Origin: Escherichia coli
GTDB taxonomy: Bacteria; Pseudomonadota; Gammaproteobacteria; Enterobacterales; Enterobacteriaceae
Strand: one strand, 5' to 3'
NCBI RefSeq assembly: GCF_030384885.1
Contig: NZ_CP128613.1
DNA length: 64,000 nucleotides
Part shown: positions 694 through 29,529 of the stretch, piece after piece
Position numbering within the stretch: the first letter of the stretch is position 1
How the letters are laid out: the number at the start of each line of letters is the position of its first letter
Position numbers and translations under genes: made by a program
Notes under the pieces: model-generated
What the model was told of the DNA's origin: nothing
Seen by the model: the letters and a program-made list of their open reading frames with translations, nothing else
Database searches by the model: none

Positions 694-1704
694 ATGACGA
701 CAATGCTGGAAGTGGCGAAGCGCGCCGGGGTTTCAAAAGCGACCGTTTCCCGCGTGCTTTCAGGTAATGGCTACGTCAGCCAGGAAACTAAAGATCGCGT
801 GTTTCAGGCGGTGGAAGAGAGCGGCTACCGCCCAAATTTGCTGGCGCGCAATCTGTCAGCGAAGAGTACCCAGACGCTGGGGCTGGTAGTGACCAACACG
901 CTTTACCACGGCATTTATTTTAGTGAATTACTGTTTCATACCGCGAGAATGGCGGAAGAGAAAGGGCGTCAGCTGCTATTGGCAGATGGCAAACATAGCG
1001 CCGAAGAAGAACGCCAGGCGATTCAGTATCTACTGGATCTGCGCTGCGACGCCATTATGATTTACCCGCGCTTTTTAAGCGTGGATGAGATTGATGACAT
1101 CATTGATGCGCACAGTCAGCCGATAATGGTGCTCAATCGACGCCTGCGCAAAAACAGCAGCCATAGTGTCTGGTGCGATCATAAACAGACCAGCTTTAAC
1201 GCCGTGGCAGAGTTGATAAACGCCGGACATCAGGAGATTGCTTTCCTTACCGGTTCGATGGATTCCCCCACCAGCATTGAACGCCTTGCCGGATATAAAG
1301 ACGCGCTGGCGCAGCATAGTATTGCACTCAATGAAAAACTTATCGTCAACGGTAAATGGACGCCTGCCAGCGGGGCCGAAGGGGTAGAAACGTTGCTCGA
1401 ACGTGGGGCTAAATTTAGCGCGTTAGTTGCCAGTAACGACGATATGGCGATAGGTGCGATGAAAGCGTTGCATGACCGTGGTGTAGCGGTGCCGGGGCAA
1501 GTATCGGTTATTGGATTTGATGATATCGCAATTGCCCCCTACACCGTTCCGGCGCTCTCCAGCGTAAAAATTCCGGTGACTGAGATGATTCAGGAAATAA
1601 TTGGGCGGCTGATATTTATGCTCGATGGTGGTGCTTATACACCGCCGAAAACCTTCAGCGGAAAACTGATCCGCCGCGACTCCCTCATTGCTCTTTCGCG
1701 ATAA
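694..1704 (+). CDS. ascG: LacI-family repressor of the asc operon
   Basis: ORF track 685..1704; N-terminal HTH (MTTMLEVAKRAGVSKATVSRVLSG) and periplasmic-binding-like sugar domain; start refined to the MTTML methionine. Confidence 0.85.
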   Translation: MTTMLEVAKRAGVSKATVSRVLSGNGYVSQETKDRVFQAVEESGYRPNLLARNLSAKSTQTLGLVVTNTLYHGIYFSELLFHTARMAEEKGRQLLLADGKHSAEEERQAIQYLLDLRCDAIMIYPRFLSVDEIDDIIDAHSQPIMVLNRRLRKNSSHSVWCDHKQTSFNAVAELINAGHQEIAFLTGSMDSPTSIERLAGYKDALAQHSIALNEKLIVNGKWTPASGAEGVETLLERGAKFSALVASNDDMAIGAMKALHDRGVAVPGQVSVIGFDDIAIAPYTVPALSSVKIPVTEMIQEIIGRLIFMLDGGAYTPPKTFSGKLIRRDSLIALSR

Positions 1705-1852
1705 GCATTGTCATCACATGTCATCGTCACTAGTGTCGATGACATCGTTTATTCTGCATTGCAGAATTTAATTTCTTTAAATAACAATCAATTAAAAGTT
1801 GGCATGATTTGTGAATGTATCGGCGCATTAACTGTCATTGCTGGAGAATTTG

Positions 1853-2380
1853 ATGAACCGTTTCATCATTGCTGACGCGAGTAAATGTATTGGTTGTCGT
1901 ACCTGTGAAGTGGCGTGCGTGGTTTCTCATCAGGAGAATCAGGACTGTGCATCGCTGACCCCGGAAACTTTTTTACCGCGAATCCATGTCATTAAAGGTG
2001 TGAACATTTCCACGGCGACAGTCTGCCGTCAGTGTGAAGATGCACCGTGCGCTAACGTCTGCCCGAATGGTGCTATCAGCCGTGATAAAGGGTTTGTTCA
2101 TGTCATGCAGGAACGTTGCATTGGTTGCAAAACCTGCGTTGTGGCTTGCCCGTATGGTGCGATGGAAGTGGTAGTGCGTCCGGTGATTCGCAACAGCGGC
2201 GCAGGGCTTAACGTACGCGCTGACAAAGCCGAAGCTAATAAATGCGACCTCTGTAACCATCGTGAAGACGGCCCGGCCTGTATGGCTGCTTGCCCGACCC
2301 ATGCGCTGATTTGTGTCGATCGTAATAAACTTGAACAACTGAGCGCAGAAAAACGCCGCCGCACGGCGCTGATGTTCTAA
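1853..2380 (+). CDS. hydN: 4Fe-4S ferredoxin-type electron transfer protein
   Basis: Multiple CxxCxxCxxxCP ferredoxin motifs in track ORF 1838..2380; start refined to [12 protein letters not shown]; position upstream of hypF. Confidence 0.85.
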
Positions 2381-2532
2381 AAATCTTACAGAACTGTTCT
2401 GGCATCAAAGGAATTCCCGGAAATATTCGTAGAATACGGAGCGGGCGGTATCGCCAACCTGTGACTACCGGATGCGACGCGGTCGTGTCCGGCTGGGCGG
2501 GTTACGCAATTCATGATGGCGGGAATAACTCA

Positions 2533-4785
2533 ATGGCAAAAAACACATCTTGCGGTGTCCAACTGCGTATTCGTGGCAAAGTGCAGGGCGTCGGTTTTCG
2601 TCCATTTGTCTGGCAACTGGCACAGCAATTAAATCTTCACGGCGATGTCTGTAATGACGGCGATGGCGTGGAAGTCCGGTTGCTGGAAGATCCGGAAACG
2701 TTTCTTGTTCAATTGCATCAGGATTGTCCGCCGCTGGCGCGTATTGATAGCGTCGAATGTGAGCCGTTTATCTGGATGCAGCCGCCCACTGAGTTCACCA
2801 TCCGCCAGAGCGCGGGCGGCGTCATGAATACGCAAATTGTTCCCGATGCCGCGACTTGTCCTGCCTGTCTTGCCGAAATGAATACCCCAGGCGAACGGCG
2901 TTATCGTTATCCGTTTATCAACTGTACCCACTGCGGCCCGCGTTTCACCATTATTCGCGCGATGCCTTACGACCGTCCGTTTACCGTGATGGCGGCGTTT
3001 CCGCTATGTCCGGCCTGCGATAAAGAATATCGCGACCCGCTCGATCGTCGCTTTCACGCCCAGCCGGTGGCCTGCCCGGAGTGTGGCCCACATCTTGAAT
3101 GGCTAAGTCATGGTGAACATGCGAAACAAGAGGCGGCATTACAGGCGGCTATCGCTCAGTTAAAAATGGGCAACATTGTCGCTATCAAAGGGATTGGCGG
3201 ATTTCATCTCGCCTGCGATGCGCGTAACAGTAACGCGGTGGCGACACTACGGGCGCGCAAACATCGCCCGGCGAAACCGCTGGCGGTTATGTTGCCAACG
3301 GCAGAAGGTTTGCCCGACGCTGCCCGTCAGTTGCTCACCACGCCCGCCGCGCCGATTGTACTGGTGGATAAAATATATGTTCCGGAACTTTGTGACGATA
3401 TCGCCCCTGGCCTTAACGAAGTCGGGGTGATGTTGCCTGCGAATCCGCTCCAGCATTTGCTGTTACAGGAACTGCAATGCCCGCTGGTGATGACCTCCGG
3501 CAACCTGAGCGGTAAACCACCGGCTATCAGCAACGAACAGGCGCTGGAGGACTTGCAGGACATTGCCGACGGATTCTTGATTCATAACCGCGACATCGTG
3601 CAGCGGATGGATGATTCAGTGGTGCGCGAAAGTGGCGAAATGTTGCGCCGCTCGCGGGGGTATGTACCGGATGCGCTGGCTTTGCCTCTGGGCTTTAAAA
3701 ATATTCCTCCTGTGCTGTGTCTCGGTGCGGATCTGAAAAATACCTTCTGTCTGGTGCGTGGTGAACAGGCGGTGTTGAGTCAACATTTGGGCGATTTAAG
3801 TGACGATGGCATTCAGATGCAGTGGCGCGAAGCGTTGCGCCTGATGCAAAACATCTACGATTTTACTCCACAGTTTGTGGTGCATGATGCGCATCCGGGC
3901 TATGTCTCCAGCCAGTGGGCGCGTGAAATGAATCTGCCGACGCAAACGGTGCTGCATCACCATGCCCACGCGGCGGCGTGTCTGGCAGAACATCACTGGC
4001 CGCTGGATGGCGGTGATGTCATTGCGTTGACGCTCGACGGTATTGGTATGGGGGAGAACAGCGCTTTATGGGGCGGCGAGTGCCTGCGGGTGAACTATCG
4101 CGAATGCCAGCACCTGGGCGGCTTGCCAGCGGTGGCGCTTGCTGGGGGCGATTTGGCGGCGAAGCAGCCGTGGCGTAACCTGCTGGCGCAGTGCCTGCGC
4201 TTTGTGCCGGAGTGGCAGAATTACCCTGAAACGGTAAGTGTGCAACAGCAAAACTGGAGCGTGCTGGCGCGGGCCATTGAGCGTGGAATTAACGCGCCGC
4301 TGGCGTCATCGTGTGGGCGTTTGTTCGATGCTGTGGCGGCGGCACTGGGCTGTGCGCCAGCCACGTTAAGTTATGAAGGTGAAGCGGCTTGCGCCCTTGA
4401 GGCGCTGGCGGCTTCGTGCCAGGGAGTGACGCATCCGGTGACGATGCCGCTGGTGGACAATCAACTGGATCTCGCCACTTTCTGGCAGCAGTGGCTGAAC
4501 TGGCAGGCTCCGGTTAATCAACGCGCGTGGGCATTTCATGATGCGCTGGCGCAGGGTTTTGCCGCGTTGATGCGTGAGCAGGCCACGATGCGTGGTATCA
4601 CTACGCTGGTATTTAGCGGCGGGGTTATTCATAACCGTTTGCTGCGTGCACGTCTGGCGCATTATCTTGCTGATTTTACGTTGCTCTTCCCGCAGAGTTT
4701 ACCTGCGGGGGATGGCGGGTTGTCTCTGGGGCAGGGGGTTATTGTTGCGGCCCGTTGGGTGGCGGGTGAAGTCCAGAATGGATAA
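2533..4785 (+). CDS. hypF: Carbamoyltransferase HypF, [NiFe]-hydrogenase maturation
   Basis: Track ORF 2461..4785; acylphosphatase-like N-terminus ([10 protein letters not shown]), two Zn-finger CxxC pairs, YrdC and Kae1-like domains; start refined to [15 protein letters not shown]. Confidence 0.9.
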
Positions 4786-4807
4786 ACGTGTTGCATTTGG
4801 GCGCAGT

Positions 4808-4893
4808 GCCGGATGCGGCGTGAACGCCTTATCCGGCCTACACATGCGCTCCCCGTAGGTCGGATAAGACGCGCCAGCGTCGCATCCGACATT
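4808..4893. repeat. REP/BIME-type extragenic palindromes between hypF and norW
   Basis: gccggatgcggcgtgaacgccttatccggcctac and inverted partner gtaggtcggataagacgcgccagcgtcgcatccgac read directly. Confidence 0.8.
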
Positions 4894-4911
4894 TTGGGCA
4901 CAGTAGTCCGC

Positions 4912-6045
4912 CTACATCGGCAAGGTTTTCAATAATCCAAACGCCTCTTTCATCCGATCCTCACTGACTACAAAGGCGCGAAGCTGGTCGGCATCGTCAA
5001 CGCCGCGCGCCACCATTCCCTGGCTTTCGGTACAAATCTGCCAGCGCAAATCCCGACGCTGGGTTTCCCCTGCCAGATGCAGCGGTAATTCCGGCGTTTT
5101 GATTTTCACCAGCATCGCCGGTAGTTTCAGCGGTGCGTTTCCACCGAGCAAGTTCTTCGCCAGCACCATCGCGCTAAGTTGAATCGGCTGCAGGAACGGC
5201 AATACCTGACCATTAATTTCTGCGCAATCGCCCAGCGCGTAAATATCGGCATTACTGGTTTGCAGATAACTATCGACGCAAACGCCGCGATTAATCGTCA
5301 GCCCGGCGCGTCGTGCCAGGGCGGTTTCCGGGCGCAGTCCGGTGGCGGCAATTACCGCATCCACTTCGGTGCTGCGCTGGCGGTCCAGCGTTGCCAGAAT
5401 GCCAGAATTCGTTTTTTCCAGCCCCTGCAACTGAGATTTCAACAGCAGATGAACGCCCATCTCCGTCAACCGATGCTGTAAGCGACTGCTTACTTCCGGT
5501 GGCATTAACGACGCCAGAATACTGGCAGCGTTGTCGATTAGCGTGACCGCTTTGCCTGCCCGACAAAAATCCATCGCCAGTTCGCTACCAATCAAACCAC
5601 CGCCTACAATCAACACCCGTCGGGCATCCCGCAGTTGTGTTTCACAGGCGCGATACTCTTGCTGACTATTTAACGTCAGCATTAACTCACGCCCAGGCAC
5701 CGGCGGGACAAAGGCGTTGGCACCGGTTGCCAGCACTAGCTTGTCGTATTGCCACTGATTATTCTGGCTTTTCACCACATGGGCTTCGGCATCGATATCC
5801 GTCACCCAGGTGTGCGGAAACAGGCGCAGATTAAACTGCTCGGCAAATTCACCCGCCGTCTGGCGGGTAAGGTCGTCGGCACGTTGCCCCTGACTGATCA
5901 CATGGCTAAGATCAGGTTTGTTGTACTCATCCATGCTGTCGGCGGCAATCAGGGTCAATGGAATACCGGTATCCTGTTTACGAATATTTTTCACCAGTTG
6001 GCGGGCGGCGAAGCCTGAACCAATGATCACAATGCCGTTGCTCAT
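4912..6045 (-). CDS. norW: NADH:flavorubredoxin reductase
   Basis: Track ORF 377 aa, [22 protein letters not shown] Rossmann motif; 4-nt overlap with norV. Confidence 0.9.
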
Positions 6046-7481
6046 TTTGCCTCCGATGCCAGTTCGTCAAAGACGTCTTTGCCGATGGAGCATTCCGGGC
6101 ACAGGAAGTTATCCGGGACTTCACTCCACGGCGTGCCTGGCGCAACGTCCTGCATTGGCTCGCCTTTTGCCGGATCGTAAATCCACTGGCAGACACTGCA
6201 CTGCATCCGCGGACCGAGATCAGCCGTCGTGGCGGCACAGGTTTCTTCTTTAACCACCGTATTCACCGTGCTTTGCGGCAGCGGCGAAAGCGCCCACTGA
6301 CGGGCAATTTCACGACCGTGTTCACGGCATAACTCCAGCGCGTCCTGGTCCGGTCGCCATTTGGCTTTCAGGCTAAGCGACATTTCGAAACCTGCATCCT
6401 GCAGGCGTGTGGAAAGACGATCCACCGCACCGCCGCTCCAGCCGTGAGAGCCGAAAGCACTGGCGCGTTTGTTACGGAAGCGTAATCCGGTCATCTCCTC
6501 CACCAGCCCGGCGATTTTCGGCATCATCACGTTATTCATCGTCGAAGTGCCAACCAGCACGCCTTTTGAGCGGAAGACATTGGTCAGGATTTCGTTTTTA
6601 TCGCTTCGGGCGACGTTGAAAATTTTCACCGCTACGCGCGGGTCGGTTTCCGCAATCCCCTGGGCGATAGCGTCAGCCATCATGCGGGTGTTATTCGACA
6701 TGGTGTCGTAGAAAATGGTGATTCTGTCTTCCTGATAATCCGCCGCCCATTTCAGGTACAGCTCGACAATTTGCGTCGGGTTATCGCGCCACACCACACC
6801 GTGAGAGGTGGCAATCATATCGACCGGCAAGTTAAAGCCCAGGATCTCGGTGATTTTCGGCGTTACCAGGCGGCTGAACGGTGTCAGGATATTGGCGTAG
6901 TAACGCTGGCACTGCTCGAAAAGCTCGGTCTGATCCACTTCATCGTTGAACAGATGCTCGTCGCAGTAGTGCTGACCGAAAGCATCGTTACTGAACAGCA
7001 CCGCGTCGCCCGTCAGGTAAGTCATCATGCTGTCCGGCCAGTGCAGCATTGGCGTTTCGACAAAAATGAGCTGTTTGCCGTTGCCGATATCCAGCGTGTC
7101 GCCGGTTTTCACCACGTTGAAATTCCACTCTGGATGATGGTGATGACCATTTATTGAGTCGATAGCGTTGGCAGTACAATAGATCGGCGTATCGGGAATT
7201 TGCGCCATCAGTTCGGTCAGCGCCCCGGCGTGGTCCTCTTCAGCATGGTTAATCACGATGTAATCGATATCCGCCAGATCGATTTCATTACGCAGGTTCT
7301 GCACAAATTCGCGGCTGAATTTATGGTCGACGGTGTCGATCAGCACGTTTTTTTCTTCGCGAATGAGGTAGCTGTTGTAGCTGCTGCCGCGCAGCGTTTT
7401 ATATTCTGTACCGTGAAAATCACGCACTTCCCAGTCACGTTGACCAACCCAATGAATGTTATTTTTCACCACAATAGACAT
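6042..7481 (-). CDS. norV: Anaerobic nitric oxide reductase flavorubredoxin
   Basis: Track ORF 479 aa; metallo-beta-lactamase-like and flavodoxin domains with C-terminal rubredoxin CxxC...CPxC. Confidence 0.9.
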
Positions 7482-7528
7482 AGCAACCTCAATTTATTCA
7501 GCGTGTTCTAAAAAGATGTCTTGTTAAT

Positions 7529-7544
7529 TGCAGATTGCGTGCCA
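7529..7544 (-). promoter_or_regulatory. Sigma-54 (-24/-12) promoter of norVW
   Basis: Reverse complement reads TGGCAC-gcaat-cTGCA, matching the GG-N10-GC sigma-54 consensus upstream of norV. Confidence 0.75.
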
Positions 7545-7599
7545 GTTTTTTATCTAATTGTTTTTAATATATAAATTAATTTATGCTCATTAATGAGTA

Positions 7600-7655
7600 G
7601 TCAAAATGACTATCAATCAAATGGTCGATATGACAATATCTATAGTCAAATTGAC
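7600..7655. promoter_or_regulatory. Three NorR enhancer-binding sites (GT-N7-AC)
   Basis: gtcaaaatgac (7600..7610), gtcgatatgac (7624..7634), gtcaaattgac (7645..7655) in the norR-norV divergent intergenic region. Confidence 0.8.
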
Positions 7656-7667
7656 AGTGAGGCAAAG

Positions 7668-9182
7668 ATGAGTTTTTCCGTTGATGTGCTGGCGAATATC
7701 GCCATCGAATTGCAGCGTGGGATTGGTCATCAGGATCGTTTTCAGCGCCTGATCACCACGTTGCGTCAGGTGCTGGAGTGCGATGCGTCTGCGTTGCTAC
7801 GTTACGACTCGCGGCAGTTTATTCCGCTTGCCATCGACGGACTGGCGAAGGATGTACTCGGTAGACGCTTTGCCCTGGAAGGGCATCCGCGGCTGGAAGC
7901 GATAGCCCGCGCCGGGGACGTGGTGCGTTTTCCCGCAGACAGCGAATTGCCCGATCCCTATGACGGTTTGATTCCAGGGCAGGAGAGTCTGAAGGTTCAC
8001 GCCTGCGTTGGTCTGCCGTTATTTGCCGGACAAAACCTGATCGGTGCATTGACACTCGACGGGATGCAGCCCGATCAGTTCGATGTTTTCAGCGACGAAG
8101 AGTTACGGCTGATTGCCGCGCTGGCGGCGGGAGCGTTAAGCAATGCGTTGCTGATTGAACAGCTGGAAAGTCAGAATATGCTGCCGGGCGATGCCGCGCC
8201 GTTTGAAGCGCTGAAAGAGACGCAGATGATCGGCCTGTCGCCAGGCATGACGCAATTGAAAAAAGAGATTGAGATTGTGGCGGCGTCCGATCTCAACGTC
8301 CTAATCAGTGGTGAGACGGGAACGGGTAAGGAGCTGGTGGCGAAAGCGATTCATGAAGCCTCGCCACGGGCGGTGAATCCGTTAGTCTATCTCAACTGTG
8401 CCGCACTGCCGGAAAGTGTGGCGGAAAGTGAGTTGTTTGGGCATGTGAAAGGGGCGTTTACTGGCGCTATCAGTAACCGCAGTGGGAAGTTTGAAATGGC
8501 GGATAACGGCACGCTGTTTCTGGATGAGATCGGCGAGTTGTCGTTGGCATTGCAGGCCAAGCTGCTGAGGGTATTGCAGTATGGCGATATTCAGCGCGTT
8601 GGCGATGACCGTAGTTTGCGGGTCGATGTGCGCGTGCTGGCGGCGACTAACCGCGACTTGCGCGAAGAGGTGCTGGCAGGGCGATTTCGTGCCGACTTGT
8701 TTCATCGCCTGAGTGTGTTTCCGCTTTCGGTGCCGCCGCTGCGTGAGCGGGGTGATGACGTCATTCTGCTGGCGGGGTATTACTGCGAACAGTGCCGCCT
8801 GCGGTTGGGGCTTTCCCGCGTGGTGTTAAGTTCCGGGGCGCGGAATTTATTGCAACATTATAGTTTTCCGGGAAACGTGCGTGAACTGGAACATGCTATT
8901 CACCGGGCGGTAGTGCTGGCGAGAGCGACCCGCAGCGGCGATGAAGTGATTCTTGAGGCGCAACATTTTGCTTTTCCTGAGGTGACGTTGCCGCCGCCAG
9001 AAGCGGCGGCGGTGCCTATTGTTAAGCAAAACCTGCGTGAAGCGACAGAAGCGTTCCAGCGTAAAACCATTCGCCAGGCACTGGCACAAAATCATCACAA
9101 CTGGGCTGCCAGCGCACGGATGCTGGAAACCGACGTCGCCAACTTGCATCGGTTGGCGAAACGTCTGGGGCTGAAAGATTAA
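7668..9182 (+). CDS. norR: Sigma-54-dependent NO-responsive transcriptional activator
   Basis: Track ORF 7593..9182; GAF domain, AAA+ sigma-54 activator domain (GETGTGKE Walker A, GAFTGA motif), C-terminal HTH; start refined to [14 protein letters not shown]. Confidence 0.9.
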
Positions 9183-21956: not shown

Positions 21957-22033
21957 GCATCCGTAGCTCAGCTGGATAGAGTACTCGGCTACGAACCGAG
22001 CGGTCGGAGGTTCGAATCCTCCCGGATGCACCA
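21957..22033 (+). tRNA. argZ: tRNA-Arg (anticodon ACG), copy 3
   Basis: Identical 77-nt sequence to copy 1. Confidence 0.9.
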
Positions 22034-22231: not shown

Positions 22232-22308
22232 GCATCCGTAGCTCAGCTGGATAGAGTACTCGGCTACGAACCGAGCGGTCGGAGGTTCGAATCCTCCCGG
22301 ATGCACCA
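22232..22308 (+). tRNA. argQ: tRNA-Arg (anticodon ACG), copy 4
   Basis: Identical 77-nt sequence to copy 1. Confidence 0.9.
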
Positions 22309-25216: not shown

Positions 25217-25290
25217 GAAAAAGGCCACTCGTGAGTGGCCAAAATTTCATCTCTGAATTCAGGGATGATGATAACAAATGCGCGTCTTTC
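25217..25290 (-). ncRNA. micA: MicA (SraD) small regulatory RNA
   Basis: Minus-strand reading gaaagacgcgcatttgttatcatcatccctgaattcagagatgaaattttggccactcacgagtggcctttttc matches the MicA sequence I recall, ending in a ggccactcacgagtggcc hairpin plus U-run; lies between gshA and luxS. Confidence 0.8.
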
Positions 25291-25358
25291 ATATACTCAG
25301 ACTCGCCTGGGAAGAAAGAGTTCAGAAAATTTTTAAAAAAATTACCGGAGGTGGCTAA

Positions 25359-25874
25359 ATGCCGTTGTTAGATAGCTTCACAGTCGATCATACCCGGATG
25401 GAAGCGCCTGCAGTTCGGGTGGCGAAAACAATGAACACCCCGCATGGCGACGCAATCACCGTGTTCGATCTGCGCTTCTGCGTGCCGAACAAAGAAGTGA
25501 TGCCAGAAAGAGGGATCCATACCCTGGAGCACCTGTTTGCTGGTTTTATGCGTAACCATCTGAACGGTAATGGCGTTGAGATTATCGATATCTCGCCAAT
25601 GGGCTGCCGCACCGGTTTTTATATGAGTCTGATTGGTACGCCAGATGAGCAGCGTGTCGCTGATGCCTGGAAAGCGGCAATGGAGGACGTGCTGAAAGTG
25701 CAGGATCAGAATCAGATCCCGGAACTGAACGTCTACCAGTGTGGTACTTATCAGATGCATTCGTTGCAGGAAGCGCAGGATATTGCGCGTAATATCCTGG
25801 AACGTGACGTACGCATCAACAGCAACGAAGAGTTGGCGCTGCCGAAAGAAAAGTTGCAGGAATTGCACATCTAG
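25359..25874 (+). CDS. luxS: S-ribosylhomocysteine lyase (AI-2 synthesis)
   Basis: Track ORF 171 aa; metal-binding HTLEH motif. Confidence 0.95.
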
Positions 25875-25887
25875 TCAATTGAAGAGG

Positions 25888-25918
25888 CCGGGCAGGTGAT
25901 ATCACCGCCCGGTTTTTA
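25888..25918 (+). terminator. Intrinsic terminator of luxS
   Basis: ccgggcaggtgat/atcaccgcccgg stem followed by tttttatt; the stop codon of the convergent minus-strand gene lies inside the T-tract. Confidence 0.75.
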
Positions 25919-27031
25919 TTACCTGTCAGTCACCCGATATTCCACGCTATGTGCTTCATCAGGTTGAGGAACTTCCAGCCTTGAGGCCATCCGCATCACG
26001 ACCGCTTCAGGAACGGCATACTCGCGCCTGGCATTTTGCTGCTTCCATTGCGCCCATGGCACTTCCAGATAAACGATTTTTACTCGTGCGCCGTAAGCCG
26101 TAAACAGACTGATGAGCTGGCTACGCAGTTGGCGGGTAATGTTCGTTGCATTCCAGATGAACGGCTTTTTCTGGCGTAAAAAAACGCGCGCCTCTTCTTT
26201 TGCCTGTTGCACAATACGCCCGGTCGCGGTTTTGTCGTCCGGGCTGGCATTGATTCGCCGCCGCATATCATCAAGGCTGATAACGTCCATTCCCTGGCAC
26301 TGTTCACTGATATAGCGATCTTTGCCCATACCCGGTAAGCCACACAGCAAAATGACCTCAAAAGGTTCAGCCTCCCAGGGAACAAAATCAGGAGAACTTT
26401 GTTCATGGGTCAGATAATGCCAGCGTGCGGAATCAGACACGAACGAGCGCACTTTTCCCCAACACTGTTGCTCCTGGCAAAATAGCTCGAACAGATCGAT
26501 GCGTTCCAGCATTGATTGCTGATCATGACAATGGCGACCAAGCAGATCGGCACGAGCAAGCAAAGCGAGCAGACGCGTGTCGATACGCATTGCAGCCGTG
26601 AGCAGCAAACGCTCCGGTTCCGGACGTTCTAGTAACCATAGCGGTAACCCATGCAGACGCACCAGTGCAACAATTTGCTCGCGTAGCACGAACGGCGTCG
26701 GGATATCGCGCCATAAAATTTGTCGGGCCGTCAATTCACCCCGACGAGCATGACCAGGAGACTGAATACGTCCGTTTTCCTGCACGGTAGTACTGCGCTT
26801 TTCAACGTCATGCAATAACGCCGCCGCCCATAAAATTTCCTGCTGCTGAGCGGGGAGTTGCTGGAACTCTGGCAGAGCCACGAGTGCATTCAGCACCATT
26901 TCAGTATGCACACCAACGTCGCCTTCACCATGATGCTCCGGGTCTTGCGGCGTATTATGCATATCCTCAACCCAGCTAAAACGCTGGCGTAGCGTCGACC
27001 AGCGTTTGTCGTCGGTAAGTTGCCAAATCAT
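25919..27031 (-). CDS. HD phosphohydrolase fused to a P-loop polynucleotide-kinase-like domain (HD-Pnk-like end-healing enzyme)
   Basis: Track ORF 370 aa: N-terminal HD signature ([10 protein letters not shown] ... LLHDVEK); C-terminal P-loop CGLPGMGKD followed by DDMRRR, the Asp/Arg arrangement seen in T4 Pnk-type 5'-OH kinases; ATGA overlap with the upstream ligase-like gene. Confidence 0.6.
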
Positions 27032-27735
27032 GACTGTTCTCCATAAGCGAACTCATGGGCCATCCGCGCCCGTCGCCAGTGGCGTTTCCAGTGCTCGGTG
27101 GTTTTGACATGATTTTTGCGTACATACTTGAAGACGTTATGCGAAAAGTCAGCGACGGAAAACGCATCACTATTCCGGCTGACAATGCCTTCCAGCGTAC
27201 AGGGTTGTCCGGTTTGCGTATCCCAGGGATCGAACGCACCGCGCGCATTGGTCAGCGCCAGAAAATCACGTTGCCAGCTTTTTTCATCATTCCCCGGCTG
27301 CGGGCCGGAGATTTCGGGAACGCAGGGGAAATCAAACAGAGCGGCGTAAAACTGCACCTCTTCCCAGCTCAGCCACATATCCTGGCAGCGAACGGCAAAC
27401 AGATAAAAATCCTGCTCCAGGGCGCGATATTCAATCGAATGAACGGCATAAAGATTTTCACCAAACAACTCCAGATCGCCGAGATCGTTTTTCAGCAGTT
27501 GCCAGCGTTGGCGAATTTTATAGGTCCATGCCGATTGTGTAGGCGCGGCATGGGAACGGGCAAACACGCCGTAGCGGTTAAGGCAGTTATTTTCACCGTC
27601 GAGTTTTTCAGTATGTACCAACTGCGAAATTGCCTGCATATCTTGCCAGTAACTGGCGTTAATGCGGTCATCGCTGGTGGTGCCAGGGGAGAAGGGGTAA
27701 TGCCAGGTTCTCCCGTATTTACGTTGGGTATTCAT
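27028..27735 (-). CDS. ATP-dependent RNA/polynucleotide ligase-like nucleotidyltransferase, Rnl2-like motif I
   Basis: Track ORF 235 aa: motif I TEKLDGEN (K-x-D-G-x-N), then [12 protein letters not shown] (motif III-like), EGIVSRN (motif IV-like), [10 protein letters not shown] (motif V-like) in canonical order. Confidence 0.6.
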
Positions 27736-27951
27736 AATAATCCATTATTTTTTGTGTAATAAACGTACGCCCGCGAGGGTGCGAGTTATGGGGTTAAAAA
27801 AAATGTGAGTATCACCCGCGAAAGCGAGGGCGAAGAAAAAAGAGAATTAACAACCTGAGCGAATGCTCAGAACCGGTTAATGGTGAATGGAAGAGTTTGG
27901 AGCGGCGAAAAGATACACCGTTTGAGATGATAAAACAACCGTTTACAGAAT

Positions 27952-27982
27952 GAGCAAATAAAAAGGGAGCCGCAGCTCCCTT
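27952..27982 (-). terminator. Intrinsic terminator of emrB
   Basis: On the minus strand, gggagctgcggctccc hairpin followed by a U-run (plus strand aaataaaaagggagccgcagctccc). Confidence 0.7.
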
Positions 27983-27990
27983 TAACAACC

Positions 27991-29529
27991 TTAGTGCGCA
28001 CCGCCTCCGCCGCCACCTGCGCCAAATGGCGGTTTAGCAAACCACACCAGCCCCAGCAGGACGAGGAATATCCCGGCTGACATCCAGAAGATCTCATTGG
28101 CGGAAATAATCAGCCCCTGATTAGTGATCTGCTGGGCAATCCAGCCTGATGCCTGTTGTTGCGTCATCCCCAGCCCTTCCAGTTGGCTGTACATCGCCTG
28201 AGCGTTCGGGTTAAACGGGTTTACCGACTCGGTTAACTGTGCGTGGTGCATCGACTCGCGGTTAGTCCACATGGTGGTGGTGATGGATGTGCCGATAGAC
28301 CCCGCCAGCGTTCGCGTAAAGTTAGAGAGGCTCGATGCCGCCGCCAGTCGCTCCGGTGGCAAACCAGACAGCGTAATGGTGGTCAGCGGCATAAAGAAGC
28401 AGGCCACCGCGAAGCCCTGGATAAACTGCGGCCAGGCCGACGCGCCAAAATCCATCCCCGGTTCAAAGGTATAAGCACGCCAGTAGAAGCAGACGGCATA
28501 CATGATAAAGCTGAAGGTTACCAGTCGCCGCATATCCAGTTTATGCGCGAAGCGGCCGATAATCGGCGACAGGATCACCGGAATAATCCCTACCGGCGCA
28601 GAGGCAAGCCCCGCCCAGGTTGCTGTATAGCCGTAGACTTCTTGCAATAACTGCGGCAGCAGAACAATCGCGCCGAAGTAGAGCATATACGCGAGGCTGA
28701 TACACAAGCAGCCGATGGTGAAGTTGCGCGATTTAAACAACGACAGATCCACTATCGGATTATCGTCGGTCAGCTCCCAGACAATCAGGAAGCAGATAGC
28801 CACCACCGCCACCACGGTGAGGATGATTATTTCCTGCGATGAGAACCAGTCCAGCTCTTTACCGCGGTCGAGCATAATCTGCAGGCTGCCGATACCAATC
28901 ACCAGCAGTGCCAGCCCCACGGCATCAATCCGCCGCCGTTCGGTGCGGGTTTCGCGTCCGCGCAGGGTTTGCAGTGTCATCAACACCACCGCCACGCCAA
29001 TCGGCACGTTGATGAAGAATATCCAGCCCCAGTGGTAATTATCGCTGATATAACCGCCGAGGATCGGGCCGCAAATTGGCGCGACAATCACCGTCATCGA
29101 CCACAACGCCAGCGCGATCGAGCGTTTTGCTGGCGGGTAGTTATTCAGCAATAGACTTTGCGAAAGCGGGATCAACGGCCCGGCGACAATTCCCTGAATC
29201 ACGCGGAAGAAGATCAGCATATTCAGGCTGCTGGAGACACCACACGCCCACGACGCAATAGCAAAGGCGATGGTCGACCAGAGGAACAGCTTCACTTCCC
29301 CAACGCGCTTTGCCAGCCAGCCGGTAAGCGGGATCGAGATGGCATTCGCCACCCCGAAAGAAGTGATTACCCACGTTCCCTGGCTGAGCGATGAGCCCAG
29401 ATTCCCGGCGATAGTGGGGATCGCCACGTTAGCAATGGTGGAGTCCAGCACCTGCATGAATGTCGCCAGTGACAGCGCAATCGTCATAATGACCAGTTGC
29501 GCGCCTTCCAGCGGTTTTTGCTGTTGCAT
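27991..29529 (-). CDS. emrB: Multidrug efflux MFS transporter (DHA2 family)
   Basis: Track ORF 27991..29538; 14-TMS-type MFS; start refined to MQQQKPLEGAQLVIM. Confidence 0.9.
   Translation of the reverse strand: MQQQKPLEGAQLVIMTIALSLATFMQVLDSTIANVAIPTIAGNLGSSLSQGTWVITSFGVANAISIPLTGWLAKRVGEVKLFLWSTIAFAIASWACGVSSSLNMLIFFRVIQGIVAGPLIPLSQSLLLNNYPPAKRSIALALWSMTVIVAPICGPILGGYISDNYHWGWIFFINVPIGVAVVLMTLQTLRGRETRTERRRIDAVGLALLVIGIGSLQIMLDRGKELDWFSSQEIIILTVVAVVAICFLIVWELTDDNPIVDLSLFKSRNFTIGCLCISLAYMLYFGAIVLLPQLLQEVYGYTATWAGLASAPVGIIPVILSPIIGRFAHKLDMRRLVTFSFIMYAVCFYWRAYTFEPGMDFGASAWPQFIQGFAVACFFMPLTTITLSGLPPERLAAASSLSNFTRTLAGSIGTSITTTMWTNRESMHHAQLTESVNPFNPNAQAMYSQLEGLGMTQQQASGWIAQQITNQGLIISANEIFWMSAGIFLVLLGLVWFAKPPFGAGGGGGGAH

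What the first reader, a model, noticed from the sequence alone, without database searches (positions are those of the whole stretch)
27028..27735. Minimal (235-aa) ligase with Rnl2-like motif I and no obvious accessory domain
Motif I reads K-L-D-G-E-N, the K-x-D-G-x-N form typical of Rnl2-like RNA ligases and kinetoplastid editing ligases rather than the K-x-D-G-x-R of DNA ligases and capping enzymes. Motifs III, IV and V follow in order ([27 protein letters not shown]). At 235 aa the protein is essentially only the nucleotidyltransferase domain; known Rnl families usually carry an OB or other C-terminal or N-terminal module that directs substrate choice. Specificity might therefore come from the partner HD-kinase protein, which would make this a distinctive stand-alone ligase.
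Basis: partly seen in the sequence, partly recalled or inferred. Interest (0 to 1): 0.7.

Follow-up and report, generated by a model that had tools for sequence, protein, structure and literature searches.

The report
Small RNA ligase paired with end-healing enzyme
This is a real, very small ATP-dependent RNA ligase gene that always sits next to a gene for an RNA end-repair enzyme; the pair was already described in another bacterium, and what the ligase joins is still unknown.

Summary

It is not a new kind. RefSeq already calls it 'RNA ligase family protein'. Its stop overlaps by 4 nt the start of a 370-aa HD-phosphoesterase/polynucleotide-kinase gene. That layout was published for Runella slithyformis (HD-Pnk plus ligase). 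There the ligase forms ligase-AMP but sealed no tested substrate.

The pair is a 2.1-kb insert between luxS and emrB in 998 of 5426 complete E. coli genomes. The kinase gene follows the ligase in 80 of 80 related loci from Enterobacterales and Bacteroidota. RtcB lies nearby in 19 of these loci. In 9 the order is rtcB-prfH-ligase-HD-Pnk, which points to repair of translation RNAs.

The idea that the partner supplies specificity is plausible but untested; a fused-chain model gave no confident complex. Verdict: a new member of a known, biochemically unsolved family. Interest is moderate.

The parts
27028..27735 (-). Ligase gene (LIG), 235 aa, 27.7 kDa; RefSeq WP_001097123.1 'RNA ligase family protein'
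27664..27720 (-). Conserved N-terminal peptide, residues 6-24 ([19 protein letters not shown]). It lies upstream of motif I and outside the Pfam match.
   Evidence: Invariant or nearly so in 28 close homologues. K6, Y7, H12, S16, D22 and D23 are at least 90% conserved in 67 diverse homologues. The same motif occurs in eukaryotic multidomain relatives. Its role is not determined.
27589..27606 (-). Motif I, K44-L-D-G-E-N49; K44 is the predicted AMP-accepting lysine
   Evidence: Position. K44, D46 and G47 are invariant. Aligned to Rnl2 K35 and to KVDGYN of an archaeal RNA ligase.
27436..27468 (-). Motif III, residues 90-100 ([11 protein letters not shown]), with invariant E93
27388..27408 (-). 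Motif IIIa, residues 110-116 (FYLFAVR), with conserved F113 and R116
27172..27192 (-). Motif IV, residues 182-188 (EGIVSRN), with invariant E182 and G183
27103..27129 (-). Motif V, residues 203-211 (KYVRKNHVK). K203 is invariant. The family form is K-x-V-R, with no second lysine at +2.
   Evidence: the same K-x-V-R appears in the ligase domains of the proteins
27031..27120 (-). Basic, aromatic C-terminal tail, residues 206-235 (12 K/R/H, 3 D/E). It has no regular secondary structure and is not a separate domain.
   Evidence: Composition. H209, W216, W220, R222 and A223 are conserved. The model shows coil with pLDDT 68-95.
27028..27031 (-). ATGA overlap: the ligase stop codon overlaps the HD-Pnk start codon (translational coupling)
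   Evidence: ORF coordinates; sequence ...AGTCATGATT...
25919..27031 (-). Partner gene, 370 aa: N-terminal HD phosphoesterase domain plus C-terminal P-loop polynucleotide kinase (HD-Pnk type); RefSeq WP_000638149.1
   Evidence: Pfam AAA_33 E 6.6e-32 and HD E 0.014. NCBIfam Pnkp kinase, HDIG and CCA-enzyme HD region, all below cutoff. By Foldseek the kinase part resembles C. thermocellum Pnkp kinase (TMt 0.73) and T4 Pnk (TMt 0.74).
27736..27961 (-). Conserved leader/promoter region between the emrB terminator and the ligase start; contains three hairpins and a possible anti-Shine-Dalgarno element
   Evidence: Alignments; terminator-like hairpin at 27871-27854; no Rfam match
25878..27989 (.). 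Two-gene island that replaces the 59-bp luxS-emrB spacer of E. coli K-12
   Evidence: BLAST of the K-12 locus against the window. Present at >=80% coverage in 998 of 5426 complete E. coli genomes. GC 51.5% against 50.5% for the window.

Best explanation
The 235-aa protein is the sealing enzyme of a two-gene 'heal-and-seal' RNA repair cassette.

Step 2 (shown for the Runella enzyme; inferred here by homology): the partner HD-Pnk removes the 2',3'/3' phosphate with its HD domain and phosphorylates the 5'-OH with its P-loop kinase domain. This gives 3'-OH and 5'-PO4 ends.

Step 3 (ligase-AMP formation was reported for the Runella ligase; inferred here from the invariant K44, D46, G47, E93, E182 and K203): the ligase reacts with ATP, and Lys44 becomes adenylylated.

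Step 4 (inferred; not shown for any member): AMP is passed to the 5'-PO4, and the 3'-OH attacks to close the break.

The ligase is a bare catalytic domain. Substrate choice must therefore come from its conserved N-terminal peptide and basic C-terminal tail, from the shape of a particular folded RNA target, or from the co-translated partner. The two genes are translationally coupled and are inherited as a unit.

For: Partner: AAA_33 kinase plus HD, and a Pnkp/T4 Pnk-like kinase fold. It lies immediately downstream on the same strand in 80 of 80 loci from two phyla, and in two further contigs. The overlap is ATGA.

Rosetta-stone fusions: 14 of 30 multidomain relatives carry a P-loop kinase. Seven carry the 2H and DSP phosphoesterase domains of 'Swiss Army Knife' RNA-repair proteins.

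RNA-repair neighbourhood: RtcB lies within 6 kb in 19 of 80 loci, PrfH in 9 and RlaP-like genes in 3.

Literature: the same gene order, with overlapping ORFs, is described in Runella, where the ligase forms a covalent enzyme-AMP (PMC6097658).
Against: No member of this family has been shown to ligate anything. The Runella protein sealed none of the 3'-OH/5'-PO4 DNA or RNA substrates tried. Motif V lacks the second lysine of the canonical K-x-K. From established knowledge of T4 Rnl2, its catalytic domain alone is defective in the AMP-transfer step, so a domain-less ligase may need help. The fused-chain AF2 model gave no confident ligase/HD-Pnk interface (pTM 0.59).
Confidence: 0.68

Rival explanations
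1. This is a narrower version of the main reading. The cassette is a second, ATP-dependent arm of the PrfH/RtcB2 damaged-ribosome repair pathway. After PrfH releases the stalled ribosome, HD-Pnk and the ligase re-join 16S rRNA cut in the decoding centre, or another translation RNA. They act when the cyclic-phosphate end has been opened or lost so that RtcB cannot use it. The ribosome presents the nick, so the ligase needs no RNA-binding domain.
For: In five Serratia loci and four Bacteroides-type loci the order is rtcB-prfH-ligase-HD-Pnk, co-oriented with very short gaps. PrfH scores 312 and 306 bits against a cutoff of 167, and the Serratia RtcB scores 584 bits on the 'release_rtcB' model. 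RtcB2/PrfH repair colicin-E3-cut ribosomes, and RtcB2 is specific for that substrate (PMC9304027; PMC9223846). This reading would explain why the Runella ligase was inactive on generic substrates.
Against: Only 9 of 80 loci have prfH next door, and 48 of 79 have no close same-strand partner at all. In this E. coli window neither rtcB nor prfH is nearby. Other loci pair the cassette with a different RtcB type, RlaP-like or Ro-like genes, which fits a broader RNA target range.
Confidence: 0.18
2. The protein is not a strand-joining enzyme. It stops at adenylyl transfer. It might put an AMP cap on a 5'-phosphate RNA end, or adenylylate a protein or small molecule.
For: The Runella homologue forms enzyme-AMP but joins nothing tested. 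There is no accessory domain. Motif V has the variant form K-x-V-R.
Against: Motifs I, III, IIIa and IV are all conserved as in true ligases, and motif V keeps its first lysine. The gene is always paired with an enzyme that makes exactly the ends a ligase needs. It is fused to kinase and phosphoesterase domains in eukaryotic repair proteins. The similarly small C12orf29 family does ligate RNA.
Confidence: 0.1
3. It is a tRNA-ligase-like enzyme that needs a 2'-phosphate next to the 3'-OH. It leaves a 2'-phosphate junction that is later cleaned by the Tpt1/KptA 2'-phosphotransferase.
For: In Runella the pair sits beside a Tpt1 gene. The best sequence-level match among solved structures is a fungal tRNA ligase catalytic domain (9qw7, E 1.2e-4). 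E. coli KptA has no known substrate (own knowledge).
Confidence: 0.06
4. It is a DNA nick-sealing or DNA-end repair ligase that works with HD-Pnk on damaged DNA ends.
Against: It has no OB domain, which DNA ligases use to encircle the nick. Its family and neighbours are RNA-repair genes. The Runella protein did not seal DNA substrates.
Confidence: 0.03

Closest known systems
Runella slithyformis ligase of the HD-Pnk repair cluster (Munir & Shuman 2017; described in PMC6097658)
   Same: The ligase ORF lies immediately upstream of, and overlaps, a gene for an N-terminal HD phosphoesterase and C-terminal polynucleotide kinase protein. It is expected to form ligase-AMP. Close homologues of the window protein (62-66% identity) are found in the same phylum, Bacteroidota.
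   Different: In E. coli the pair stands alone between luxS and emrB, with no Tpt1 or methyltransferase-HIT genes. Orthology to the Runella protein is inferred from architecture, not checked by sequence.
T4 RNA ligase 2 (Rnl2) and kinetoplastid editing ligase REL1
   Different: It has no C-terminal helical domain, whereas Rnl2 needs one for AMP transfer at a nick. Motif I has D where Rnl2 has H. Motif V is K-x-V-R rather than K-x-K. Sequence identity is only about 15%.
Rnl5 nick-sealing ligases (Naegleria NgrRnl, Deinococcus DraRnl)
   Different: Rnl5 enzymes carry an N-terminal OB-like domain that is part of the active site. Here only a 37-residue conserved peptide precedes the Pfam-matched catalytic core (residues 38-205).
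C12orf29 / RLIG1 family (Yasminevirus homologue, 242 aa)
   Same: A single-domain 'minimal' ATP-dependent 5'-PO4/3'-OH RNA ligase that works on tRNA anticodon loops without an accessory domain (PMC11071452). It shows that a ligase of this size can be active.
Ligase domains of eukaryotic 'Swiss Army Knife' RNA-repair proteins
   Same: 35-41% identity over residues 5-225, including the N-terminal YP-T-H-PFSPG-DD peptide and the K-x-V-R motif V. They are fused to a P-loop kinase, a 2H phosphoesterase and a DSP phosphatase.
   Different: Those are domains inside proteins of 600-2400 aa, often with a second ligase domain. Here the domain is a free-standing bacterial protein.

Membership tests
Covalent nucleotidyltransferase superfamily (ATP-dependent ligases and capping enzymes) | Motif I lysine in K-x-D-G, followed in order by motifs III, IIIa, IV and V | tested here: met
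   Motifs at residues 44-49, 90-100, 110-116, 182-188 and 203-211. K44, D46, G47, E93, E182, G183 and K203 are invariant in 67 homologues. Motif V is a variant, K-x-V-R.
Covalent nucleotidyltransferase superfamily (ATP-dependent ligases and capping enzymes) | Nucleotidyltransferase fold, with the lysine between two antiparallel strands | tested here: met
Covalent nucleotidyltransferase superfamily (ATP-dependent ligases and capping enzymes) | Formation of a covalent enzyme-(lysyl)-AMP intermediate | not testable with these tools
   Reported for the Runella ligase-like protein (PMC6097658); not tested for the E. coli protein.
Pfam RNA_ligase (PF09414; Rnl2/REL1/DraRnl-type catalytic domain) | Significant match to the family profile | tested here: met
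   E 5.3e-28, residues 38-205 against model positions 2-171 of 171.
Rnl2 family (T4 Rnl2, REL1) | C-terminal helical domain after the catalytic domain, needed for nick recognition and AMP transfer | tested here: not met
Rnl5 family (DraRnl, NgrRnl) | N-terminal OB-like domain preceding the catalytic domain | tested here: not met
   Only 43 residues precede K44. The model shows no N-terminal domain.
Rnl1, Rnl3, Rnl4 and Rnl6 (T4 Rnl1, archaeal Rnl, Pnkp ligase, fungal Trl1 ligase) | Clade-specific extra domains (C-terminal tRNA-binding or helical domain; N-terminal and dimerisation domains) in proteins or ligase modules longer than this one (matched solved chains are 364-610 residues) | tested here: not met
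HD-Pnk-associated ligase (Runella-type repair cassette) | Ligase gene immediately upstream of, co-oriented with and overlapping a gene for an HD phosphoesterase / P-loop polynucleotide kinase protein | tested here: met
   4-nt ATGA overlap. Partner domains. The arrangement is kept in 80 of 80 related loci.
HD-Pnk-associated ligase (Runella-type repair cassette) | Sequence orthology to the Runella slithyformis ligase | not tested
   The Runella sequence and the 2017 paper were not available. Close homologues exist in other Cytophagia and Chitinophagia.
Known anti-phage defence systems (PADLOC) | Match to a defence-system protein model | tested here: not met
   No family matched either protein.

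The most novel reading that the evidence does not exclude
The minimal ligase and HD-Pnk form a substrate-specific second arm of the PrfH/RtcB2 ribosome-repair pathway. The ligase has lost all RNA-binding domains because the damaged ribosome, or HD-Pnk, presents the nick. It seals 16S rRNA or another translation RNA only in that context. This would explain why the Runella enzyme is inactive on generic substrates. It would also give roughly one in five E. coli strains an extra layer of resistance to ribosome-cutting toxins.
Probability: 0.15. Interest if true: 0.75.

Novelty: new member of a known kind. Interest (0 to 1): 0.42.

Why it matters
E. coli is usually described as having RtcB-type RNA ligases only. 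About 18% of complete E. coli genomes also carry this classic ATP-dependent ligase with its own end-healing enzyme. The family is highly conserved, with 62-66% identity between Enterobacterales and Bacteroidota, including gut Bacteroides and Proteus/Providencia. Yet its substrate is unknown, and the one homologue studied would not ligate standard substrates. Having it in E. coli makes the question easy to address genetically. The recurring linkage to rtcB and prfH gives a concrete target to test. It would also help define the smallest protein that can carry out all three ligation steps.

Tried and rejected
1. A single-sequence search of PDB sequences returned only mollusc hemocyanins. These were summed weak repeats over a Trp/Tyr-rich stretch and are spurious. 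The profile search gave weak true ligase hits.

2. NCBIfam has no model for the ligase. PADLOC has none for either protein.

3. The diverse alignment A2 was too variable for the genome scan, so A1 was used instead.

4. AF2 was run on the ligase, a 30-residue linker and HD-Pnk as one chain, with 24 paired sequences. It gave pTM 0.59, and the ligase N terminus lost confidence. This gives no support for a complex, but it is a weak test.

5. I looked for natural ligase/HD-Pnk fusions. The ~590-aa relatives P0260 and P0236 are ligase-kinase fusions with no detectable similarity to the window HD-Pnk outside the P-loop kinase region.

6. Jumbo-phage homologues exist at 32-45% identity. In the two annotated phages I checked, the ORFs I compared just downstream of the ligase are not HD-Pnk.

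7. The Tpt1 link seen in Runella is not general: 1 of 80 loci.

8. hhalign against T4 Rnl2 reached motifs I to IIIa only, with probability 42%. I therefore could not map motif V by alignment.

9. Munir & Shuman 2017 and Burroughs & Aravind 2016 are not in the library. What I say about them beyond PMC6097658 and PMC12776372 is from memory.

10. No newer name or function for the family was found in the literature searches.

Full report
**What is there.** The window is an E. coli chromosome. It is 100% identical to strain 2013C-4282 over the region tested. An ORF of 235 aa lies at 27028..27735 on the minus strand. RefSeq annotates it as WP_001097123.1, 'RNA ligase family protein'. FYLFAVR at 110-116 serves as motif IIIa. 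Pfam RNA_ligase (PF09414) matches residues 38-205 with E 5.3e-28.

**Fold.** I built an alignment of 67 homologues that go down to 30% identity. AlphaFold2 with this alignment gave a single compact domain with mean pLDDT 94.3 and pTM 0.91.
- Foldseek agrees. All RNA ligase clades score a TM of about 0.5, and none is close.
- 173-184 of the 235 residues superpose on these catalytic domains.
- K44 sits between strands 39-44 and 48-53, as expected for motif I.
- hhalign places K44, E93 and F113 on Rnl2 K35, E99 and F119.

**No accessory domain.** Only 43 residues precede K44, and 24 follow motif V. Both extensions are conserved, but they are peptides rather than domains.
- The N-terminal K6[18 protein letters not shown]24 is invariant among close homologues. 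It is largely kept in distant ones.
- The C-terminal tail has 12 basic and 3 acidic residues. It contains conserved H209, W216 and W220 and has no regular secondary structure.
- The defining extra domains of Rnl1 to Rnl6 are all absent.
- Motif V is unusual. The family has K203-x-V-R206 rather than K-x-K. I could not determine which residue replaces the second lysine.
Rnl2 reads KIHGTN, and the exact K-x-D-G-x-N form also occurs in an archaeal Rnl3-type ligase.

**The partner and the island.** The ligase stop overlaps, as ATGA, the start of a 370-aa ORF at 25919..27031.
- That protein has a C-terminal P-loop kinase (Pfam AAA_33, E 6.6e-32) and a weak N-terminal HD match.
- It also gives weak NCBIfam matches to bacterial Pnkp kinase, HDIG and the HD region of the CCA-adding/repair enzyme.
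- By Foldseek its kinase part resembles C. thermocellum Pnkp kinase (TMt 0.73), T4 Pnk (TMt 0.74) and mammalian PNKP.
- The two genes, with a leader of about 225 nt, form a 2112-bp insert (25878-27989). This insert replaces the 59-bp luxS-emrB spacer of K-12.
- 998 of 5426 complete E. coli genomes carry the insert. Its GC content is ordinary.

**Relatives.** Full-length homologues of 228-249 aa at 62-72% identity occur in Serratia, Xenorhabdus and Pragia. They also occur in Bacteroidota such as Chryseolinea, Ohtaekwangia and Chitinophaga.
- A scan of one genome per species found 348 species with the family's signature peptides. The best 80 were Enterobacterales and Bacteroidota, including Proteus mirabilis, Providencia, Bacteroides fragilis and Prevotella.
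- In all 80 loci an HD-Pnk homologue (51-96% identity) follows the ligase on the same strand, overlapping it or within a few dozen bases in nearly all of them. Two further metagenomic or genomic contigs show the same arrangement.
- Farther out, the whole unit of residues 5-225 recurs in stand-alone proteins of about 215-230 aa at 35-45% identity.
- It also recurs in jumbo phages and in HNH fusions.
- It occurs inside eukaryotic multidomain proteins as well. Of 30 such relatives, 14 carry a P-loop kinase, and 7 carry the 2H and DSP phosphoesterase domains that Pfam names after 'Swiss Army Knife' RNA-repair proteins.

**Context that bears on function.** I clustered all ORFs in the 80 loci. The only recurrent operon partners were RtcB (19 loci) and PrfH (9 loci).
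- In five Serratia loci and four Bacteroides-type loci the order is rtcB-prfH-ligase-HD-Pnk, co-oriented with very short gaps.
- The identities were confirmed with NCBIfam. PrfH scored 312 and 306 bits against a cutoff of 167. The Serratia RtcB scored 584 bits on the PrfH-associated RtcB model.
- PrfH and RtcB2 rescue and re-ligate ribosomes cut in the 16S decoding centre by colicin-E3-type toxins (PMC9304027; PMC9223846). Term searches of those two papers (operon, kinase, RNA ligase, neighbour, adjacent, downstream) turned up no mention of a ligase or HD-Pnk extension.
- In Cytophagia-type loci the cassette sits beside a longer RtcB, an AAA/FtsH-like protein, a Ro/TROVE-like protein or RlaP-like nucleotidyltransferases.
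- A KptA/Tpt1-like gene is near only 1 of 80 loci, so the Runella Tpt1 link is not general.
- 48 of 79 loci, including this window, have the pair alone.

**Mechanism and its status.** The best-supported reading is a heal-and-seal RNA repair cassette. HD-Pnk converts cyclic-phosphate/5'-OH breaks to 3'-OH/5'-PO4. The ligase, through Lys44-AMP, seals them. End healing is shown for the Runella enzyme, and ligase-AMP formation is reported there. Both are inferred here by homology. Strand sealing has not been shown for any member.

My only test was inconclusive: AF2 of a linker-joined chain with 24 paired sequences gave pTM 0.59. Specificity could equally come from the conserved terminal peptides or from the structure of a particular target such as the ribosome.

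The rivals are listed with their evidence in the report sections. They are a ribosome-specific substrate (a narrower version of the main reading), an adenylyl-transfer-only enzyme, a 2'-phosphate-dependent tRNA-ligase-like enzyme, and a DNA ligase.

**Verdict.** This is a real gene and a genuine minimal ligase, correctly spotted. It belongs to a family and a gene pair that are already annotated and partly studied, so it is a new member of a known kind. Interest is moderate. The biochemical puzzle of what it seals remains unsolved. The presence of the cassette in E. coli and its recurrent linkage to rtcB-prfH make that puzzle more tractable.

Noticed in passing
window 27736-27961 (minus strand is the sense strand): The region of about 225 nt between the emrB terminator and the ligase start is conserved across Escherichia, Klebsiella, Phytobacter, Kosakonia and Superficieibacter. 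It contains a promoter-like block and three hairpins, one at 27871-27854 that looks like a terminator. RNAalifold pairs a conserved UCCAUU with AAUGGA just upstream of the ATG, which could be an anti-Shine-Dalgarno element. In two sequences an A-to-G change keeps a G-U pair; there is no full compensatory change. No Rfam family matches.
   Followed up: partly
L018-L020, L022, L023 (Serratia); L070, L074, L084, L085 (Bacteroides), about 3800-7800 in each locus: Four co-oriented genes, rtcB-prfH-ligase-HD-Pnk, with very short gaps. This extends the 'two-gene' rtcB2-prfH ribosome-repair operon. Term searches of the two rtcB2-prfH papers I could read turned up no mention of the arrangement.
   Followed up: partly
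L032, L044, L058 (about 900-7800); L051 (2383-9627); L054, L080: In Cytophagia/Chitinophagia-type loci the cassette is preceded by a longer RtcB. In L032, L044 and L058 a 686-aa AAA/FtsH-like protein and a 392-aa membrane-like protein lie between RtcB and the ligase; L037, L054 and L080 carry only a relative of the latter. L051 has two RlaP-like nucleotidyltransferases between RtcB and the ligase, plus a second RtcB downstream. A Ro/TROVE-like gene and a 577-aa regulator-like gene lie nearby in several loci.
   Followed up: partly
window 25219-25290 (minus strand): MicA small RNA (Rfam RF00078, 83.9 bits, E 6.5e-13), in its usual place between gshA and luxS.
   Followed up: yes
window 27055-27759 (plus strand): A 234-aa ORF runs antisense across almost the whole ligase gene. 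Similar antisense ORFs appear in 23 related loci. It looks like a shadow of the conserved coding strand, not a gene.
   Followed up: partly
window 25300-25877 and 27990-28600: The luxS and emrB flanks are only 96-97% identical to K-12. Of the 3912 matching E. coli genomes, 3868 fall in the 90-95% identity band, and a single genome is >=99% identical. The window may come from a divergent Escherichia lineage.
   Followed up: no
proteins P0166, P0171, P0179, P0229: Eukaryote-type multidomain proteins carry two different ligase domains. Both have an N-terminal [YF]P-x-T-x-H-L...DD peptide and a K-x-V-R motif V. They also carry a P-loop kinase, and most a 2H phosphoesterase and/or a dual-specificity phosphatase. 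The conserved N-terminal peptide is unexplained.
   Followed up: partly
L036 9545-10051 (opposite strand): This is the only Tpt1/KptA-like gene (43% identity to E. coli KptA as recalled) found near any of the 80 ligase/HD-Pnk loci.
   Followed up: no
window about 21957-22033 and 22232-22308: Two tRNA-Arg genes are annotated in the matching RefSeq record upstream of yqaB. The long 'ORFs' listed there are translations across the tRNA genes.
   Followed up: no
window 25888-25917: A hairpin CCGGGC-N13-GCCCGG followed by T5 lies right after the luxS stop and abuts the HD-Pnk stop. It is the island's own luxS terminator and differs from the K-12 one. The scan tool missed it because the loop is longer than 8 nt.
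   Followed up: no
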